From a virus (taxonomy: Duplodnaviria > Caudoviricetes), in the IMG/VR virus record IMGVR_UViG_3300031992_000040, positions 44,675-108,674 of that record: a stretch of 64,000 bases of DNA, one strand, 5' to 3'. Positions within the stretch are counted from its first letter, which is position 1; each line of letters opens with the position of its first letter. Shown here piece by piece: positions 2,959 through 35,219 of this stretch. The notes beneath the pieces are model-generated. The model was not told where the DNA came from. It was given only the letters and a program-made list of their open reading frames with translations, and ran no database searches. A program made the position numbers and the translations under genes.

Positions 2959-4260
2959 ATGGATTTTAATTCTAATGAAACAGTCGAATTTAAAAAGACT
3001 ATAGAAGATATAGTTTCGGCACAATTTTATAGAGAAGGAGTCACAAAATATGTTGCTGCAAAAATCACTGCGGTTAATTCAGATGGCACCTTCAATGCAA
3101 TAATTCCGCCTGACGATGAAGTAGAAGTCGTTGGGCTTTTAAATAAATCTAATGATGCTTTACAAGTGGGGGATTCTGTAGAGCTTGTAACAAAAAATGG
3201 AAAGCTTTCTAATGCGTGGATAAGCGCGAAACATAAAAAAAATCATTTTGGATTTACTTATTCTCCCGATGGTCAGAATAGAGGATTATTTGATTATGAT
3301 GTTAATGATTGGATTTATTATAAGTCGCAAGATAATAATTTAAACATTCCTTATTTGGCAGATACAAAAAAAAGAAGAAGTTTCTTTTTACAGAATCATT
3401 CGCGTGATGATGCTCCAAGTTATTATTTAATAGCAAAATTACCAGTAAGCAATACGAGCAATAGGGCAAGCGTTGTTATATCTGGTTTATTTGGGGGGTA
3501 TTCTTCTAATACTCAGGCATATATGGATTTATTGATAGGTAACAGAGACAGATTTACTGTAAGTTTAATGTATACAGGAGATTCTTCTGCGTTTAATTAT
3601 ACTACAGTGGAAGTTTATGAGCAAACGAATGGGGAATATTGGATATATGTAAAGAGGATACAAAGATATACTACGGATACAATTTTTGATATTGTAGCTT
3701 CTCAGGCGGAACTTATTTGTTCTACAACTCCAACCACGCCTTCTGGAAATTTAATAAAAACAGTTGGAGCTGGAGATGCTTCTGGCGGAGGAGGAAGCAC
3801 GGATGTTTCAAGGGCTTATCCCGTTGGTTCAATTTATTTGACTACTTCGTCTACAAATCCCGCAACATTGTTTGGTTTTGGAACCTGGCAACAAGTTTCT
3901 CAAGGAAGAGTTTTAATTGGTGTTGGAACTGGAAATGATGGAAATACTTCTAGGACATATGCTTCTGGAGACACTGGAGGAGAGTATACTCATAAACTTA
4001 CTCTTTCGGAATGTGCTTCACATCAACATAACCCCGATACATCTTCTTGGGGATTTTTAGCTTATGTTCCTGGAGACGTAGAAAGAGTTAGGGTTGGGAC
4101 TAATACGAGTGGTCGATATGCATTTTTAAGTGTAGCAGCAAGCTCAGCAGATGCTTCAGGGTTAAAATATGCAGGAAAAACAGATTCACGAGGTGGTAAT
4201 GGATATCACAATAATATTCAGCCATACTATGCGGTGTATATATGGCGTAGAACGGCTTAA
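2959..4260 (+). CDS. Tail fibre/baseplate protein with gp10-C/collar-like C-terminal domain
   Basis: YPVGSIY...GTWQQVSQGRVLIGVG...GGEYTHKLT...HNNIQPYYAVYIWRRTA signature. Confidence 0.75.
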   Translation: MDFNSNETVEFKKTIEDIVSAQFYREGVTKYVAAKITAVNSDGTFNAIIPPDDEVEVVGLLNKSNDALQVGDSVELVTKNGKLSNAWISAKHKKNHFGFTYSPDGQNRGLFDYDVNDWIYYKSQDNNLNIPYLADTKKRRSFFLQNHSRDDAPSYYLIAKLPVSNTSNRASVVISGLFGGYSSNTQAYMDLLIGNRDRFTVSLMYTGDSSAFNYTTVEVYEQTNGEYWIYVKRIQRYTTDTIFDIVASQAELICSTTPTTPSGNLIKTVGAGDASGGGGSTDVSRAYPVGSIYLTTSSTNPATLFGFGTWQQVSQGRVLIGVGTGNDGNTSRTYASGDTGGEYTHKLTLSECASHQHNPDTSSWGFLAYVPGDVERVRVGTNTSGRYAFLSVAASSADASGLKYAGKTDSRGGNGYHNNIQPYYAVYIWRRTA

Positions 4261-26540: not shown

Positions 26541-26837
26541 ATGGAAAATAAGTTAAAACAATGTATAATAGATTATATTTTAGATTTAAAACAAAAAGGA
26601 TTTTCTTATAATGAAATAATGAAATCGGTTAATAAAATATTTTCACAAGTAAAAACAACCGTTGAGAAAGCAAATAAAGAATTGTGTTGTATTTGCGGAA
26701 AAAGAATAGAGGGATTTGGGAATAATGCTCAACCTATTGCAGACGGAAGATGTTGTGATGATTGTAATAGAGCTGTAATCAACGCAAAATTTGATAAAAT
26801 TTTCTCAGATGGAGATGCCGTTAATGAGAACGTGTAA
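26541..26837 (+). CDS. Zinc-finger protein
   Basis: CCICG...GNNAQP...RCCDDCN. Confidence 0.6.
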   Translation: MENKLKQCIIDYILDLKQKGFSYNEIMKSVNKIFSQVKTTVEKANKELCCICGKRIEGFGNNAQPIADGRCCDDCNRAVINAKFDKIFSDGDAVNENV

Positions 26838-27255
26838 ATTATGTAAAAATAAGTTTGGACAAAAAGGATATTATTGCCCTTCTTGTTATGCATATTTAAG
26901 AATACACCCAGAAGGAGTTTATGAATTGCCTAATGCTGGAGAAATAAGAAGGGCATCAAATGGAGACCCTATCTGTCATATTTGTGGCATGGCTTATAGA
27001 AAGTTAGGTAATCATATCGCTTTTAAACATCATATGACACAAAATGAATATAGAGATATGTTTAAATTATATCATAATACTAAGTTATCAAATTATGAAT
27101 ATATTAATAAAATGTCACAATATAATAACATTTATAAAGACATTGTTGTTAAAGAAAATTTAATAAAAGGCGGAAAGAAAACAAGGATTACTCCTGAAAT
27201 GCAGAATATGCCAAAAAGAAAATATGGCAGAGCAATTTCAGAAAAAACTGTTTAA
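26824..27255 (+). CDS. Double zinc-finger protein (C4 plus MucR/Ros-like C2H2)
   Basis: CKLC...CPSC; ICHICG...LGNHIAFKHHMT..EYR. Confidence 0.55.
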   Translation: MRTCKLCKNKFGQKGYYCPSCYAYLRIHPEGVYELPNAGEIRRASNGDPICHICGMAYRKLGNHIAFKHHMTQNEYRDMFKLYHNTKLSNYEYINKMSQYNNIYKDIVVKENLIKGGKKTRITPEMQNMPKRKYGRAISEKTV

Positions 27256-27294
27256 TTTTCACCACAAAATATTCTTTAACGATATTTACTGGAG

Positions 27295-27322
27295 AAAAAA
27301 AAGAGGTTTATGCCTCTTTTTT
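27295..27322. terminator. Bidirectional terminator where the two arms converge
   Basis: A-run-GAGG-TTTATG-CCTC-T-run hairpin overlapping the TROVE stop codon. Confidence 0.7.
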
Positions 27323-28939
27323 ATTTTCTTTATTATCCCATTGTTTAATTAGTTCTGATGCAAATAATAATTCTTTTCCTGTCCATCCGTATAGAACGGC
27401 TCCTCTATAAATATATTCTGGTATTAAAGCATTATTATATCCTGCTGTTTGTATCATAAACACGTTTACTTTTGGATTCACTTCTGCCCTATATTTATTG
27501 ATTAACTTCATTACATCGACATATTTACCACTGTTATAGTTTGTTCCGTCTATAATATAATCATCCGTTTTACCATACAAACCACCGTGTCCAGCTTGTT
27601 GGTCTGAATAAATAAATATATTATCATACCAGGTTTTTTCTCTTATTGCTGAAAGGAAGAACAACCAAATACCATTTTCTGTGCCCATACCGATTCCTTG
27701 ACGAGATTCTTCTGATATTTTTTTTGCCTCAGACAGTATACCATTTTTCTTTAATATAGAGTATTCTTTTAATCTATCTCCGAATGCTCCAACATATCCT
27801 TCATCACTTCTATGAGCAACCATTACAGAACTTAAATTACCTATTTCCGCTACTGTTACACTTCCGTATTCACTAGGTATTGCTCCCCAAGCACTTCCAG
27901 AATTGTCTGATAAACACATTGTTTTACCTTTTAACATAGGAAGTTCCCTAGAACTAATATCTATACAATCTTCTAAAGCATCCATAATGCTAGCTTTAAA
28001 ATTAATTTCACTATTTGAACATTTTTCAATTCTTTGTAATGCCGTATAGTATCTAAAAGGAAATTGTTTACCCTTCTTAACCCCGCTCTTTAATTTTGCT
28101 AATATATTATCTTTTTCTGATAAATCATCAATCTCTTTAAATATATTCTTTAAATTTCTTAGCAAGGCCATATGGGGCATATCAATAGTTCTCAATATTT
28201 CTTTAAAAGATTTTCCTTCAGAACGTAAGTTTTCCCAGGTCTTATCTTCTTCTTCAATTTCTATTGTTCCCGTAGTCATCAATTCATTTATTGCTGAATT
28301 CTTTGCGTGACAAATTCTTATTACATCTATAAGCCCAATATCTTTATTTTTATATTTTGCAATCTCATATTTTGTCATCTTTTCAATTCTATCAGCCCAA
28401 GAACGCTTTAATATTGATGGGATTTTATTTTTAGATTTATTATAATATAAGTAAAAAGAAAGTTGAGACGCAGGTTCATCGGCTCTGGCCATAATTTCGC
28501 AATTTAATTGTCTAAATAATGATGGATTTTCTTTTGAAAATTCTTCTCTTTTTGGATTTATTGCGGCTAAAACCATTATTACTTGTGGGTTTAATCTCAT
28601 ATAAAAGTTATTACGCAATTCTTTTGCCCACTCAATAGTTCCCATAAAATCATATTCTAATGAGTCTTCAATGGCCATAATCATTATTTCAGAAGTGGTC
28701 TTATTATCTGGAAATAAAAATAAACCATAATCTTCTACCAATCTATGATATTTAAATTTACCATCTCTAATACCAGAATTTCTATAATAAGCAGGCTCTC
28801 CAAATATTGAAGATGCTGAAATCATTTTTAATGTTTCAAGCGGGTCAAGCTGATAAGATACGCCACCCATAAAGTTTTCTACGGGTTTTTCTTTTCTAAC
28901 CTTATCTTCCCAATCTACAATTTTGCTTATTTTACTCAT
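27308..28939 (-). CDS. Ro60/Rsr-like TROVE + vWA RNA-binding protein
   Basis: 543 aa; N-terminal NFMGG.SY, RADEP, MALLRNL, KQFPFRY, MIDAS-like DNSGS, IYSDQQ. Confidence 0.88.
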   Translation of the reverse strand: MSKISKIVDWEDKVRKEKPVENFMGGVSYQLDPLETLKMISASSIFGEPAYYRNSGIRDGKFKYHRLVEDYGLFLFPDNKTTSEIMIMAIEDSLEYDFMGTIEWAKELRNNFYMRLNPQVIMVLAAINPKREEFSKENPSLFRQLNCEIMARADEPASQLSFYLYYNKSKNKIPSILKRSWADRIEKMTKYEIAKYKNKDIGLIDVIRICHAKNSAINELMTTGTIEIEEEDKTWENLRSEGKSFKEILRTIDMPHMALLRNLKNIFKEIDDLSEKDNILAKLKSGVKKGKQFPFRYYTALQRIEKCSNSEINFKASIMDALEDCIDISSRELPMLKGKTMCLSDNSGSAWGAIPSEYGSVTVAEIGNLSSVMVAHRSDEGYVGAFGDRLKEYSILKKNGILSEAKKISEESRQGIGMGTENGIWLFFLSAIREKTWYDNIFIYSDQQAGHGGLYGKTDDYIIDGTNYNSGKYVDVMKLINKYRAEVNPKVNVFMIQTAGYNNALIPEYIYRGAVLYGWTGKELLFASELIKQWDNKENKKEA

Positions 28940-28965
28940 ATAAATCTACCTCTTTCTAAAATAAA

Positions 28966-29089
28966 GACTCTTGAGAATAACTTAAAGACGAAATATAAGC
29001 CCTTTATATCACGGAGATATGAGCTCTAATTAAAATCCTTTTTACTAATTTACCAAAATCGAAGTATGTCTTTAACCGCTTCAAGAGTC
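28966..29089 (-). ncRNA. Y-RNA-like structured RNA, copy 1
   Basis: 9-bp closing stem GACUCUUGA/UCAAGAGUC, internal loop AGCGG/GUUAUUC, second stem UUAAAGAC/GUCUUUAA, UACUUCG; 26 nt upstream of the TROVE ATG. Confidence 0.65.
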
Positions 29090-29107
29090 ATTTAATTTTT
29101 CATTTTT

Positions 29108-29190
29108 GACATCCGAGAATAACCAAAAGAGTAATAAGTTTTAACCAAAAACTATCATAACGAAGTAACTCTTTTACCGCTTCGGATGTC
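29108..29190 (-). ncRNA. Y-RNA-like structured RNA, copy 2
   Basis: Closing stem GACAUCCGA/UCGGAUGUC, the same AGCGG/GUUAUUC loop, second stem AAAAGAGU/ACUCUUUU, UACUUCG. Confidence 0.65.
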
Positions 29191-29209
29191 TGTTCTTTTT
29201 TTTTATGTG

Positions 29210-29285
29210 TGGTGGAGCATACAGGGGTCGAACCTGCGACCTCCACGGTGCAAACGTGGCGCTCTCCCAGCTGAGCTAATGCCCC
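29210..29285 (-). tRNA. tRNA-Ala(UGC)
   Basis: Canonical 76-nt cloverleaf GGGGCAUUAGCUCAGCUGGGAGAGC...UGC...GGUUCGA...CCA with G3:U70. Confidence 0.95.
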
Positions 29286-29297
29286 AAAATATTAATT

Positions 29298-29509
29298 TGG
29301 AAAGGGAGCTACCGCTATTACTGTATCCTTTTACCTTAGTTCACTATACGTTTATAAGCGCCATTACATACTAAGAACCAAAAAAAATCAATAGGTTAAT
29401 GCTTATATAGTAAAGGGTTAACCAAAACATTCTATATACACACTACATTTTACATAACTTATTCTATTAGTCTCGTTAGTGTCATTGAGCTATCAGCAGT
29501 TGCTCCTTC
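29298..29509 (-). ncRNA. Candidate ~210-nt structured RNA between the tRNAs
   Basis: Long closing helix GAAGGAGCAACUGCU/AGCGGUAGCUCCCUUU followed by CCA; internal hairpins; no convincing ORF. Confidence 0.45.
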
Positions 29510-29536
29510 GTTTCTGCATCAAAGTTAAAACCTAAT

Positions 29537-29610
29537 TGGCAGAGAGCGTAGGAATTGAACCCACTCGACTTGAGATTTGGAGTCTCAACGGCAACCATCG
29601 CCTGCTCCCC
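29537..29610 (-). tRNA. tRNA-Trp(CCA), atypical structure
   Basis: 74 nt; anticodon loop CUCCAAA, T-arm GUGGG-UUCAAUU-CCUAC, G73 and encoded CCA; short D-arm. Confidence 0.8.
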
Positions 29611-29880
29611 ATATAGCTTTGCATAAGACTGAAATTATATTTTGCTCTCTCTAATTATTATATTATAATTCTAAGTCTTATACACAAACGCAAAGTATAC
29701 CGCAAGAGAGATGCGTTTGACAAATGCAATAAGCATAGTTTTCGATTTATGCACGGTCGTTAGAACAAAAAATTATTCAAAACATATATTCAGGGGGCGA
29801 AAAAACCGTGCTACGCCAAAATGAAAAACAAATCAAATGCGTAAGAGCTATTCTTGTCTCTTACAAATTAAGTATAGCAT

Positions 29881-30246
29881 TTATGAATATAAGTTGTCAA
29901 TGTATTTTTCAAACAATTTTTGCATCTCTGGTGTTATTGTATTATTACCAAATTTTCTTGAAATTTCTATGGCTTTCAAGGTCTTTACTGCATTAGAGAT
30001 ACTGCCGATATTATTATTTTCCATACACAATAGAATACAAAAAAGAGCTGCAAAAAACATTTCTTCACTAATGTCGCTTAATTCCATTATTTTTATGACT
30101 TCATCAATATATTTATGAACCTTATATGTTTCAATTCCAACTTGTGCTAAACAATCATCACAAGCATAAACCCCATTCGCTAATGTTTTAGTGGTCTTTT
30201 GTCCACATTGAATACATTTTCCTCTTTTTTTTAATCTAAATCCCAT
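29881..30246 (-). CDS. Hypothetical protein with N-terminal Zn finger
   Basis: CIQC...CDDC. Confidence 0.5.
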   Translation of the reverse strand: MGFRLKKRGKCIQCGQKTTKTLANGVYACDDCLAQVGIETYKVHKYIDEVIKIMELSDISEEMFFAALFCILLCMENNNIGSISNAVKTLKAIEISRKFGNNTITPEMQKLFEKYIDNLYS

Positions 30247-34022: not shown

Positions 34023-35219
34023 TTATTCGCTAGCTTTAAAATTATATATTGGCTTTATTATTTTTTCTACTTCAACTGTATCTTTTATACGTTCTAATAT
34101 TTCTTGCATTGGTTTATATACCATAGGTGCTTCATCTATTGTTTCCTCATTTACTGATGTTGTATATATACCGTCCATTGATTTTTTGTAATCATCAATA
34201 TTTAATGTTTGCCTTGCTATGTTTCTTGACATTGTTCTACCAGCTCCGTGTGGTGCAGAATAATTCCAATCTTCATTGCCTTTACCAATGCCTATAATAC
34301 ATCCATCTCTCATATTCATAGGTATAATAACTTTTTCACCTTTTCTTGCTGATATTGAACCTTTTCTAACAATGTTATCTTCAAAATTTATATAATTATG
34401 AATACATTGGAAATAATCTTCACTTAATATACTCATCTCTTTACAAATTTTATAAGCAATATAACTTCTATTTAATAATGCAAACTCTTGACATAGTTTC
34501 ATATCGTGCAAATAATCTTCTCTATCTTTTCCTTCTAAATAACATAAATCTTTTGGCAATTTAGTTTTTCCATTATATTTAGCATTAATTTCTGTTAATA
34601 CTTTTTGTATTTCCTTTTCTCTGCCTTGTTCTTTATATTCTTTAATTACTTTTTGCTTTTCATCGTTCATTTCTTTTTTGTATGAACAATATTCTATCGC
34701 TTTATTTTGATATATTTCGGCAACTTGTTTTCCTAAATTTCTCGAACCCGTATGAATAACTAAATATTTGTTATTTTCATCATCAACATCAATTTCAATA
34801 AAATGATTACCACCACCTAGTGAGCCTAATGACTTTTCTAACCAACCATCTTTATTTTTTAATTCTTTATAACAATATAATTGAGTAAAGTCATAATCTT
34901 TAACTTTTTTTTCATGAACATTCATTCCACTTGGTATATATTTTCTAATAATCTTATCTAATTTCTCTAAATCTAATTCTATATTTCCTAAATTGACACA
35001 TAACATACCACAACCAATATCAACACCCACTATGTTTGGTATTACTTTATCACCTAAATTGCCAGTAAAACCTATTACGCAACCTGCTCCTGCATGAACA
35101 TCTGGCATTATTCTAATTTTACAATCTTTAAATGCTTCTTGTTCTAATAATAAATCAATTTGTTCTTTTGCGCTTTGTTCTATATTGTTTGTAAATATTT
35201 TTAAGTCTTTCATAATCAA
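34023..35219 (-). CDS. rtcB: RtcB family RNA 2',3'-cyclic phosphate/5'-OH ligase
   Basis: MPDVHAG, VGVDIGCGM, GSLGGGNHFIE, HTGSR, HNY, SAPHGAGR, DEAPMVYK. Confidence 0.93.
   Translation of the reverse strand: MIMKDLKIFTNNIEQSAKEQIDLLLEQEAFKDCKIRIMPDVHAGAGCVIGFTGNLGDKVIPNIVGVDIGCGMLCVNLGNIELDLEKLDKIIRKYIPSGMNVHEKKVKDYDFTQLYCYKELKNKDGWLEKSLGSLGGGNHFIEIDVDDENNKYLVIHTGSRNLGKQVAEIYQNKAIEYCSYKKEMNDEKQKVIKEYKEQGREKEIQKVLTEINAKYNGKTKLPKDLCYLEGKDREDYLHDMKLCQEFALLNRSYIAYKICKEMSILSEDYFQCIHNYINFEDNIVRKGSISARKGEKVIIPMNMRDGCIIGIGKGNEDWNYSAPHGAGRTMSRNIARQTLNIDDYKKSMDGIYTTSVNEETIDEAPMVYKPMQEILERIKDTVEVEKIIKPIYNFKASE

What the first reader, a model, noticed from the sequence alone, without database searches (positions are those of the whole stretch)
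28966..29190. Two tandem co-varying structured RNAs directly upstream of Ro60: candidate new Y-RNA class
Seen on the - strand: copy 2 is GACAUCCGA-AGCGG-UAAAAGAGU-UACUUCG...ACUCUUUUG-GUUAUUC-UCGGAUGUC and copy 1 is GACUCUUGA-AGCGG-UUAAAGAC-AUACUUCG...GUCUUUAA-GUUAUUC-UCAAGAGUC. The stem sequences differ but pairing is fully kept, while the internal loop (AGCGG/GUUAUUC), UACUUCG and a UUUUGGU tract are identical, and the apical part varies (83 vs 124 nt total). That is the pattern of a protein-bound RNA motif. The 5' end of copy 2 (UCCGAAG..GGUA..GAGUUA) recalls the Ro60-binding 5' strand of metazoan Y RNA, but there is no tRNA-like domain as in YrlA. Inference: Ro60 ligands (a non-YrlA Y RNA), or tandem leader elements for Ro60 autoregulation.
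Basis: partly seen in the sequence, partly recalled or inferred. Interest (0 to 1): 0.8.

Follow-up and report, generated by a model that had tools for sequence, protein, structure and literature searches.

The report
Two small phage Y RNAs beside Ro60
Two small folded RNA genes sit between a tRNA gene and the Ro60 ring-protein gene of a phage; they belong to a large, uncatalogued phage branch of the known Ro60 partner RNAs (Y RNAs) and keep only the protein-docking stem, without the usual tRNA-like head.

Summary
On the - strand, 29190-29108 (83 nt) and 29089-28966 (124 nt) fold alike: a 9-bp outer stem, an AGCGG / GUUAUUC internal loop, an 8-9-bp inner stem, UACUUCG, then a variable head. 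The stems differ between the copies but stay paired.

A covariance model built without the window finds only these two places in the 64 kb (51 and 42 bits). The seed-inclusive model finds only them in the 108.7-kb phage genome. It gives 183 hits in 76 of 80 related phage Ro60 loci, all on the Ro60 strand, just upstream or downstream of the gene. The window-free model gives 52 more beside Ro60 genes in Bacillota assemblies. Other members sit flush between tRNAs in phage tRNA arrays.

All 18 pairs covary. The neighbouring protein has a Ro60 fold, and RtcB lies 5 kb away.

In relatives the same stem carries a tRNA-like head that matches Rfam YrlA below threshold. So this is a divergent YrlA-type docking stem, not a separate class. 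The window's copies are stem-only members.

Ro60 binding is inferred, not shown. A pure Ro60 mRNA leader is unlikely. The scan met this family before in other phages. Verdict: a new variant of a known kind.

The parts
29108..29190 (-). Y-like RNA, copy 2 (83 nt). Outer stem 29190-29182 with 29116-29108. 5' loop AGCGG at 29181-29177. Inner stem 29176-29168 with 29132-29124. UACUUCG at 29167-29161. Small head with a possible hairpin closed by AGUUUU/AAAACU and a UGGUU loop (my pairing by eye; the minimum-energy fold draws the head differently). 3' loop GUUAUUC at 29123-29117.
   Evidence: Sequence. Fold z -3.85. R1 57.2 bits. Window-free model R2 51.1 bits, E 1.8e-9.
28966..29089 (-). Y-like RNA, copy 1 (124 nt). 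Outer stem 29089-29081 with 28974-28966. AGCGG at 29080-29076. Inner stem 29075-29068 with 28989-28982. UACUUCG at 29066-29060. A 70-nt head with a hairpin. GUUAUUC at 28981-28975. It ends 26 nt before the Ro60 start codon.
   Evidence: z -2.90. R1 48.5 bits. R2 41.9 bits. An ortholog with a similar head stands before the Ro60 gene of the closest relative, at L146 2797-2948.
27308..28939 (-). Ro60 / TROVE + vWA protein gene (543 aa), the presumed protein partner.
   Evidence: Pfam TROVE 31.3 bits, above its cut-off of 23. 53.7% identical to Bacillus phage G gp540, annotated as an RNA-binding protein with a putative TROVE domain. AlphaFold2 model pLDDT 79.9, pTM 0.80. The 12 best Foldseek PDB chains listed (all with E <= 1.6e-10) are all Ro60: phiLo 9kop E 1.9e-15, Xenopus 1yvp, Deinococcus Rsr 2nvo.
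29210..29285 (-). tRNA-Ala(UGC) with an encoded CCA end, 19 nt upstream of copy 2.
   Evidence: ARAGORN. Rfam tRNA 63.6 bits.
29537..29610 (-). tRNA-Trp(CCA), first gene of the probable RNA operon.
   Evidence: ARAGORN.
29694..29723 (-). Promoter-like site (TTGTCA-18-TATACT) just upstream of tRNA-Trp. A stronger one (TTGACA-18-TATACT with TG) lies at 29900-29871.
   Evidence: Consensus scan only. The number of such sites is no higher than in shuffles, so this is weak evidence.
27297..27322 (.). The only terminator-like hairpin in 27200-30000. It is palindromic with A/T runs on both sides and lies just after the Ro60 stop codon.
   Evidence: No terminator-like site lies between the tRNAs, the two RNAs and Ro60.
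34023..35219 (-). RtcB RNA ligase gene, same strand, 5 kb upstream. It gives the RNA-repair context.
   Evidence: Pfam RtcB E 2e-58.

Best explanation
The two elements are genes for small stable non-coding RNAs of the Y RNA kind. They are probably transcribed together with tRNA-Trp, tRNA-Ala and the Ro60 mRNA from a promoter upstream of the tRNAs, then cut out of that precursor (inferred). Each RNA pairs its 5' and 3' ends into a two-helix 'handle'. The near-invariant unpaired nucleotides of that handle form the docking site for the phage Ro60 ring: YGA-WGCGG on the 5' side, UUACUUC at the top of the inner helix and AAUAUUC on the 3' side (inferred from association and from likeness to the YrlA stem). 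The variable head is the part that would contact a second factor. In this phage both heads are small and not tRNA-like. These two RNAs therefore most likely act as gates or regulators of Ro60, or as tethers to a host nuclease such as PNPase, within a phage RNA repair and quality-control kit of Ro60, Y RNAs, tRNAs and RtcB. Shown: the fold, the covariation, the family and its linkage to Ro60 genes and tRNA arrays. Inferred: transcription, processing, Ro60 binding and the downstream function.
For: (1) Structure. Eighteen pairs in two helices were scored on three alignments.
- Unfitted MAFFT alignment of 24 elements: 80.4% paired against 58.4% in shuffles, 114 double-change cells against 45, and 39-51% when partners are slid.
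- 124 distinct model-aligned hits: 86.6% against 55.2%, with all 18 pairs covarying.
- An independent set of 52 hits from bacterial assemblies: 86.7% against 54.7%.

(2) Linkage to Ro60.
- 183 hits at E<=0.01 in 76 of 80 phage loci picked only for a Ro60 homolog, every one on the Ro60 strand.
- Among the 148 best, 91 lie upstream (median gap 183 nt) and 57 downstream (median 256 nt), with up to 7 in tandem.
- 51 of 52 hits beside Ro60 genes in Bacillota assemblies are on the Ro60 strand.
- The whole 108.7-kb phage genome holds only the two copies.
- In pattern scans not conditioned on Ro60, pattern-only matches had neither a model score nor a Ro60 gene. True members lay beside Ro60 or inside tRNA arrays.

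(3) Bridge to known Y RNAs.
- In phage G the same handle carries a T arm and a D arm, which match Rfam YrlA at 36 bits.
- YrlA aligns over its full length (41.7 bits) to member L023 4803-4938, stem on stem and loop on loop.
- Five more members coincide with sub-threshold YrlA hits.
- Chen et al. 2014 (PMC4201824) define the bacterial Ro60-contact motif as GNCGAAN0-1G at this position in the 5' strand. Copy 2 reads UCCGAAG there.

(4) Conservation pattern. The unpaired G11, C12, U29, C31, U33, C34 and C318 are 100% conserved next to freely varying helices.

(5) Partner and context. The neighbouring protein has a Ro60 fold, and RtcB and tRNAs lie on the same strand. This matches the Salmonella rsr-yrlBA-rtcBA operon (PMC7790460).

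(6) Age of the two copies. Copy 1 has an ortholog with a similar head in a phage whose Ro60 is 65% identical. The two copies are therefore old paralogs kept separately.
Against: No experiment shows these RNAs exist as discrete species or bind Ro60. Neither copy matches Rfam Y_RNA or YrlA, even at E<=10. The published 5' motif is met only in part: the first G is absent in both copies, and copy 1 has UGAA rather than CGAA. Members inside tRNA arrays can lie far from Ro60, and some fragmentary contigs that hold them show no Ro60 gene; those contigs are only 9-23% complete. The experimentally bound Yrl1 and Yrl2 of Thermus phage phiLo are not members of this sequence family, so no binding data transfer directly. 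The promoter evidence is a consensus match at chance frequency.
Confidence: 0.8

Rival explanations
1. The elements are cis-acting leader structures of the Ro60 mRNA. Ro60 would bind them on its own transcript and throttle its own translation or read-through (autoregulation), and no free small RNA would be made.
For: In the window both copies lie between the probable promoter and the Ro60 start codon, with no terminator between them. Copy 1 ends 26 nt before the ATG and is followed by UUUAUUUU. In 91 of the 148 best hits the element is upstream of Ro60.
Against: 57 of the 148 best hits are downstream of the Ro60 stop codon. Strong members sit flush between tRNAs in arrays away from Ro60, for example L108 tRNA-Val | element | tRNA-Asn, where tRNA processing would release them. 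The Shine-Dalgarno sequence is not inside the fold. A U tract after the element is not a family trait: 28 of 176 have one. Relatives with the same handle are YrlA-type RNAs, a class known as free RNAs (PMC4201824). A secondary autoregulatory effect of copy 1 is not excluded.
Confidence: 0.08
2. The elements act independently of Ro60 as accessories of the phage tRNA genes. They could be processing punctuation or precursor-folding structures, or decoys for host anticodon nucleases.
For: Many members abut tRNAs with gaps of 0-5 nt inside tRNA arrays. Some handles enclose a full cloverleaf: L010 4671-4805 holds tRNA-Lys(UUU) at 58.9 bits on the tRNA model. In the window a tRNA lies 19 nt upstream. 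Hughes et al. (PMC7790460) proposed that the YrlA tRNA-like domain could inhibit an anticodon nuclease.
Against: Most members (143 of 176) have no tRNA-like feature, including both window copies. The invariant loop nucleotides and the strict co-orientation and adjacency to Ro60 in 76 of 80 loci are not explained by tRNA processing. The two array-bearing contigs that are at least 66% complete both carry Ro60.
Confidence: 0.08
3. The elements are a DNA-level repeat (a mobile miniature element, recombination site or protein-binding palindrome) rather than an RNA.
For: The copies are tandem, have inverted-repeat ends and lie in AT-rich intergenic DNA.
Against: G-U pairs are common and strand-specific, and the reverse strand scores 6.4 bits against 57.2. 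The helices vary freely while pairing is kept. All hits in the phage loci and 51 of 52 in bacterial assemblies are on one strand relative to Ro60. There are only two copies in the genome.
Confidence: 0.02

Closest known systems
YrlA (Y RNA-like A; Rfam RF02553) of Salmonella, Mycobacterium and phages (Chen et al. 2014, PMC4201824)
   Same: Both are encoded beside Ro60 on the same strand, often several per locus. The 5' and 3' ends pair into an outer stem, an asymmetric internal loop (about 5 nt opposite 7-8 nt) and an inner stem. The 5' strand carries a CGAA-like motif followed by GC. Family members in relatives carry the YrlA tRNA-like head, and the YrlA model aligns to one of them over its full length.
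   Different: The window's two RNAs have no tRNA-like domain. They give no RF02553 hit even at E<=10. The loop sequences differ: WGCGG / AAUAUUC here against AUGCu / AaAcUuGu in YrlA. An invariant UUACUUC replaces CUA at the top of the inner stem. Even the tRNA-headed relatives score 33-42 bits, well under the 69-bit gathering score.
YrlB / Yrn2-type second Y RNAs (S. Typhimurium YrlB, M. smegmatis YrlB, D. radiodurans Yrn2; Chen et al. 2014)
   Same: [quoted passage not shown] In M. smegmatis they are processed from one precursor together with YrlA. The shape of copy 2 would fit if its head folds as I paired it by eye (a U-rich UGGUU loop); RNAfold draws the head differently.
   Different: Chen et al. 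report that YrlB sequence searches found orthologs only in Salmonella serovars. I had no YrlB sequence by reference, so similarity was not tested. Here the stem-only form is the majority of a large family (143 of 176), and this phage has no YrlA-type partner at all.
Yrl1 / Yrl2 of Thermus phage phiLo (PMC12135203; PDB 9L5Y)
   Same: These are two Y-like RNAs directly upstream of a phage Ro60 gene, with a stem-bulge-stem layout and a CGAA motif. They were shown in vitro to bind the phage Ro60 and, together with host PNPase, to form ternary complexes. The phiLo Ro60 is the closest solved structure to the window's protein.
   Different: The family model gives no hit anywhere in the phiLo locus, even with filters off. 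The Ro60 proteins are about 22-25% identical.
Metazoan Y RNAs (Rfam RF00019)
   Same: Both have a terminal stem formed by the two ends, a conserved 5'-strand motif (GGUCCGA in vertebrates, contacted by Ro60 according to Chen et al. 2014) and a variable loop that recruits other factors.
   Different: There is no model hit at E<=10. Metazoan Y RNAs have a bulged-helix site rather than a 5-by-7 internal loop, are separate Pol III genes and have La-binding U tails.

Membership tests
Y RNA (functional class: small RNA partner of Ro60) | Encoded close to, and co-oriented with, a Ro60/TROVE gene | tested here: met
   The copies end 26 and 168 nt before the Ro60 start codon on the same strand. Family-wide, 183 of 183 hits in phage loci and 51 of 52 in bacterial assemblies are co-oriented.
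Y RNA (functional class: small RNA partner of Ro60) | 5' and 3' ends pair into a long stem interrupted by a conserved loop or bulge | tested here: met
   Folds. Covariation of all 18 pairs. Invariant loop nucleotides.
Y RNA (functional class: small RNA partner of Ro60) | Ro60-contact motif GNCGAAN0-1G in the 5' strand (Chen et al. 2014) | tested here: inconclusive
   Copy 2 reads UCCGAAG and copy 1 CUUGAAG. The family consensus is YGAWGCGG. The core (C/U)GAA-G is present, but the leading G is absent.
Y RNA (functional class: small RNA partner of Ro60) | Physically bound and stabilised by Ro60 | not testable with these tools
   This needs pull-down or EMSA.
YrlA (Rfam RF02553) | Match to the covariance model at or above the gathering score (69 bits) | tested here: not met
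   There is no hit at E<=10 in the region or in the whole phage genome.
YrlA (Rfam RF02553) | tRNA-like domain (T arm, acceptor-like stem, D arm) | tested here: not met
   Neither copy has a T-arm or D-arm pattern, and there is no tRNA or YrlA model hit inside them. 33 of 176 relatives do have such features.
YrlA (Rfam RF02553) | Outer stem / internal loop / inner stem module homologous to the YrlA Ro60-binding stem | tested here: met
   Shown indirectly. The identical handle in phage G and in L023 carries a YrlA-type head, and YrlA aligns over model positions 1-114 to L023 4803-4938.
YrlB / Yrn2-type Y RNA | [quoted passage not shown] | tested here: inconclusive
   The shape is met for copy 2 only if its head folds as I paired it by eye (U-rich UGGUU loop); RNAfold draws the head differently. 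Copy 1 has a larger branched head. Sequence relatedness to YrlB was not tested because no reference sequence was in hand.
Metazoan Y RNA (RF00019) | Match to the covariance model | tested here: not met
   No hit at E<=10.
Intrinsic terminator / attenuator | GC-rich hairpin followed directly by a U tract | tested here: not met
   No terminator-like site was called in the elements. A U-rich tail follows only 28 of 176 members.

The most novel reading that the evidence does not exclude
The two-helix handle may be a portable Ro60 docking tag that large phages of Bacillota graft onto interchangeable cargo heads. The heads range from a bare hairpin (this window), through a conserved multi-hairpin domain, to permuted tRNA mimics and even complete cloverleaf tRNAs with anticodons. 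The tagged RNAs are released from tRNA-array transcripts by the tRNA-processing enzymes. On this reading the stem-only RNAs of this phage are not degenerate leftovers. They would be dedicated gates or competitors that set how much Ro60 is free to act on damaged host or phage RNAs during infection, for example after anticodon-nuclease attack, together with RtcB.
Probability: 0.3. Interest if true: 0.75.

Novelty: new variant of a known kind. Interest (0 to 1): 0.6.

Why it matters
Y RNAs are the obligate partners of Ro60 from bacteria to humans. Outside a few species the bacterial and phage ones are hard to find, because they diverge beyond sequence search.

This family gives a well-supported covariance model for a branch that Rfam misses. 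It has 176 distinct members in the loci sampled here. It spans large phages and prophage-like contigs of gut, rumen and environmental Bacillota, and includes a cultivable case, Bacillus phage G.

It shows that in this lineage most Ro60-linked RNAs lack the tRNA-like domain that was thought to mark at least one Y RNA per species. This phage has none detectable, although its record is an estimated 94% complete, so one could still lie in the missing part.

It also shows that the same docking stem is combined with very different heads, and that members are built into tRNA arrays. That gives a clean system for asking what the head does, and what Ro60 does for a phage that also carries tRNAs and RtcB.

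Tried and rejected
- **Rfam, all families.** The region, the window, the whole phage genome and related loci were scanned. Only sub-threshold YrlA hits on tRNA-headed relatives appeared.
- **The search for related loci with the single protein.** It found nothing in viral contigs. An alignment of homologs was needed.
- **Alternative pairing of GAAG (5' strand) with CUUC (in UUACUUC).** Rejected. Members with GAUG keep CUUC, and members with CAUC keep GAAG, so there is no covariation.
- **The 215-nt stretch between the two tRNAs (29286-29536) as a third, long Y RNA.** It folds no better than shuffles (z +0.38) and gives no model hit with filters off.
- **tRNA-Ala as a tRNA enclosed by a Y handle, as in L010 and L146.** Its flanks have no handle motifs.
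- **Terminator reading.** There is no general U tract.
- **Listeria phage A511.** It has the same gene order (tRNAs, Rsr-like protein, RtcB), and a close relative has abundant unannotated transcripts there (PMC12282133). The model found no hit in the first 50 kb, which holds that locus.
- **Thermus phage phiLo Yrl1/Yrl2 locus.** No model hit.
- **Desulfovibrio phage SRB7757 (Ro60 34% identical).** No model hit.
- **Long 200-230-nt members.** They share a conserved multi-hairpin head that is not tRNA-like and not YrlA.
- **Literature searches.** No description of this handle or of tandem stem-only phage Y RNAs was found. Two Wolin-lab reviews were not held, and the supplement of Chen et al. 2014 was not held. 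I therefore cannot say which phage G RNA they listed.

Full report
**What is in the window**

The window is the right-hand 64 kb of a 108,674-bp, roughly 94% complete IMG/VR virus record with about 28% G+C. Read on the - strand, the locus runs in this order:
- tRNA-Trp (29610-29537)
- a 251-nt spacer
- tRNA-Ala(UGC) with an encoded CCA (29285-29210)
- 19 nt
- copy 2 (29190-29108, 83 nt)
- 18 nt
- copy 1 (29089-28966, 124 nt)
- 26 nt containing a Shine-Dalgarno sequence
- a 543-aa ORF (28939-27308)

The ORF passes the Pfam TROVE cut-off. Its AlphaFold2 model (pLDDT 79.9, pTM 0.80) matches only Ro60 structures among its 12 best listed PDB chains. These are phiLo 9kop (E 1.9e-15, TM 0.65/0.75), Xenopus 1yvp, human Ro60 and Deinococcus Rsr 2nvo. 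An RtcB gene lies 5 kb upstream on the same strand.

Promoter-like hexamers lie upstream of tRNA-Trp. The only terminator-like hairpin follows the Ro60 stop codon. A single tRNA / small RNA / Ro60 transcript is therefore plausible, but it rests on consensus matches only.

**Checking the observation**

RNAfold gives each the same layout:
- a 9-bp outer stem ending in G-C and A-U
- five unpaired bases (AGCGG) opposite seven (GUUAUUC)
- an 8-9-bp inner stem
- UACUUCG
- a variable head

The z-scores are -3.85 and -2.90. Four outer-stem positions differ between the copies, and all four are compensated.

To rule out circularity I built a second covariance model (R2) from 27 elements of other phages only. 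In the whole window it finds just these two places, at 51.1 and 41.9 bits, and nothing else at E<=1. On the opposite strand it scores 6.4 bits against 57.2.

**The family**

The closest named Ro60 is Bacillus phage G gp540, 53.7% identical. The 1-kb gap in front of that gene holds five tandem copies of the same motif, and a sixth lies 2 kb further upstream.

An alignment of 21 Ro60 homologs retrieved 80 viral contigs. R1, built from a MAFFT alignment of 24 short elements with a hand-set structure, gave 183 hits at E<=0.01 in 76 of those 80 loci. Every hit is on the Ro60 strand.
- Of the 148 best non-window hits, 91 lie upstream of Ro60 (median gap 183 nt).
- The other 57 lie downstream (median 256 nt).
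- There are up to six or seven copies in tandem, and the median length is 88 nt.

In 80 further Ro60 loci from bacterial assemblies, R2 gave 52 hits, 51 of them on the Ro60 strand. These assemblies are mostly Bacillota MAGs such as Ruminococcus, Lachnospiraceae, Acetatifactor and a Coprovivens MAG at 65% identity, plus an isolate Bacillus.

Covariation holds on all three alignments:

| Alignment | Paired | Paired in shuffles | Other measures |
|---|---|---|---|
| Unfitted MAFFT, 24 elements | 80.4% | 58.4% | 39-51% when partners are slid |
| 124 distinct fitted hits | 86.6% | 55.2% | covariation score 0.767 vs 0.207; all 18 pairs change on both sides |
| Independent set, 52 hits | 86.7% | 54.7% | covariation score 0.771 vs 0.211 |

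The unpaired bases are close to invariant while the helices are free:
- G8 0.97, A9 0.93, G11 and C12 1.00, G14 0.98
- U29, C31, U33 and C34 1.00
- the 3'-loop C 1.00

That is the signature of a protein-binding or tertiary-contact site.

**Is the link to Ro60 more than ascertainment?**

Two pattern scans of the viral collection were not conditioned on Ro60. In the first, ten of the twelve pattern matches had no significant model hit (one weak 23-bit match) and no Ro60 gene. The two real members lay beside Ro60.

The second scan brought many strong members. Nineteen of its 47 loci held a Ro60-related gene within the fetched stretch, 18 of them this type and one a weak 24%-identical match. Several others revealed a second kind of site, where the element sits flush between tRNAs in large phage tRNA arrays:
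- L108: tRNA-Val 3102-3175, element 3176-3259, tRNA-Asn 3264-3336
- L131: between tRNA-Tyr and tRNA-Gln
- L099, L140 and L145: the same Val | element | Asn arrangement

Of 15 such contigs, the two that are at least 66% complete both carry Ro60 elsewhere, as do two of the less complete ones (19% and 23%). All those without Ro60 are fragments estimated at 9-22% complete. So I found no well-sampled genome with the element but without Ro60, though the sample is small.

**Relation to known Y RNAs**

Rfam has no family for the handle. But the handle is the YrlA stem in divergent form.

The sixth phage G copy (L001 278-437) has the same outer stem, loop, inner stem and UUACUUCG. Its head holds a T arm, an acceptor-like stem and a D arm. 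That head matches YrlA at 36 bits.

YrlA aligns over its full length (41.7 bits) to member L023 4803-4938, with outer stem on outer stem, AUGC on AUGC, inner stem on inner stem and CUAc on UUAC. Five other members coincide with YrlA hits of 33-37 bits, all far under the 69-bit gathering score.

Other members enclose a complete cloverleaf. L010 4671-4805 folds as handle plus tRNA-Lys(UUU), at 58.9 bits on the tRNA model.

The 176 distinct members divide as follows:

| Head type | Members |
|---|---|
| At most 95 nt, no tRNA feature | 97 |
| 96-150 nt, no tRNA feature | 38 |
| Over 150 nt, no tRNA feature | 8 |
| T arm only | 18 |
| T arm and D arm | 15 |

Twelve of the long members that I aligned share a conserved multi-hairpin head that is not tRNA-like.

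The window's copies belong to the stem-only majority. The published Ro60-contact motif GNCGAAN0-1G (PMC4201824) sits at the same place as YGAWG here. Copy 2 reads UCCGAAG.

**The two copies are old paralogs**

In the closest relative available (L146) four elements precede Ro60:
- one enclosing a tRNA-like body
- a perfect TTGACA-17-TATAAT promoter
- a YrlA-type element
- a short element
- a 152-nt element directly before the gene

That last element shares the stem sequences and parts of the head of the window's copy 1, more than copy 1 shares with copy 2. The duplication therefore predates the split of two phages whose Ro60 proteins are 65% identical, and both the handle and the head of copy 1 have been kept.

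**How it most likely works**

Shown: two conserved, covarying, strand-specific RNA structures belonging to a family bound genomically to Ro60 genes and tRNA arrays.

Inferred:
- They are cut from a tRNA-containing precursor. In the arrays the tRNA-processing enzymes would define both ends.
- The handle docks on the Ro60 ring as the YrlA stem does.
- The head contacts another factor.

Known systems offer three roles for Y RNAs:
- gating Ro60's cavity
- tethering PNPase (Deinococcus, Salmonella; phiLo in vitro, PMC12135203)
- for tRNA-like heads, possible interference with anticodon nucleases (PMC7790460)

With small non-tRNA heads, RtcB nearby and no YrlA-type RNA in the genome, I favour a gate/regulator or nuclease-tether role. 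My confidence is about 0.8 for 'Ro60-docking Y RNA' and much lower for any particular downstream function.

**Rivals**

A pure mRNA leader or autoregulatory operator is contradicted by the downstream and tRNA-array positions of many members, although copy 1, which ends 26 nt before the start codon, could have such a side effect. A Ro60-independent tRNA accessory or decoy role is not excluded for tRNA-headed members, but it does not explain the invariant handle or the Ro60 linkage. A DNA repeat is excluded by the strand specificity, the G-U pairs and the free helix variation.

**Limits**

- There is no binding or expression evidence for any member.
- Model E-values are rough because of shortened calibration.
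- A3 and A6 are fitted to the model. The unfitted A2 and the slid controls address this.
- Completeness estimates for the contigs are CheckV's.
- The supplement of Chen et al. 2014 and two reviews were not available. Part of the phage G array may therefore have been listed before. The phiLo paper says only that Y RNA-like RNAs were reported for phage G.

**Earlier notes of this scan**

Earlier notes describe the same handle-plus-cargo layout beside Ro60 in several other phage genomes. I reached the family independently from this window. Their leads on RtcB and the promoter were checked here. The suggested 215-nt RNA between the tRNAs was not supported.

Noticed in passing
window 34023-35219 (-): A full-length RtcB RNA ligase gene (Pfam E 2e-58) lies on the same strand as Ro60 and the tRNAs, giving a Ro60 + Y RNA + tRNA + RtcB kit like the Salmonella rsr-yrlBA-rtcBA operon.
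   Followed up: partly
window 29286-29536 (-): The 251-nt spacer between tRNA-Trp and tRNA-Ala has no ORF and contains AGCGGU. It folds no better than shuffles (z +0.38) and does not match the family model.
   Followed up: yes
L108 3176-3259; L131 9975-10056; L140 11840-11925; L099 611-696; L145 1904-1989: Strong family members sit flush between tRNA genes inside phage tRNA arrays of 12-20 tRNA genes in the stretches fetched, away from the Ro60 gene of the same genome. tRNA processing would define both RNA ends.
   Followed up: partly
L010 4671-4805; L020 4717-4848; L016 4641-4770; L146 2349-2485: Complete cloverleaf tRNAs sit on top of the Y handle in place of the head. They carry anticodons UUU, GCU, UUU and UAG, pass the Rfam tRNA threshold or are called by ARAGORN.
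   Followed up: partly
L049 2449-2670 and 11 similar elements (alignment A4): A class of 160-230-nt members shares a conserved multi-hairpin head, including a well-covarying terminal hairpin, that is neither tRNA-like nor any Rfam family.
   Followed up: partly
L008 881-1524; L023 6131-6531; L022 6650-6773; L012 2168-2450: The same phage RNA islands hold a ROOL RNA (284 bits), a tmRNA (87.9 bits), a DUF3800-I RNA (55.6 bits) and a weak group I intron hit (27 bits, below the gathering score), all within 3 kb of the Ro60 gene.
   Followed up: no
L020 5167-5256: ARAGORN calls a tRNA with anticodon UUA (reads the TAA stop codon) just downstream of the Y RNA array. It may be a suppressor tRNA in that phage.
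   Followed up: no
L226 (Listeria phage A511) 21192-31496: The gene order is the same as in the window: a tRNA array, an annotated RNA-binding (Rsr-like) protein gp57 and an RtcB. The family model gives no hit, so any partner RNA there differs. A related phage has three very abundant unannotated transcripts in this region (PMC12282133).
   Followed up: partly
L108 992-1630: An ORF with the HAD domain of 'Swiss Army Knife' RNA repair proteins (E 6e-23) lies beside the tRNA array that holds a Y-like element.
   Followed up: no
L172 2612-2710 (-): This is the only family hit on the strand opposite to Ro60 (35.5 bits), directly after the gene's end in a Synergistaceae MAG contig.
   Followed up: no
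window 26791-27255 (+): A small ROS/MucR-type zinc-finger ORF converges on the Ro60 gene and shares its terminator hairpin.
   Followed up: no
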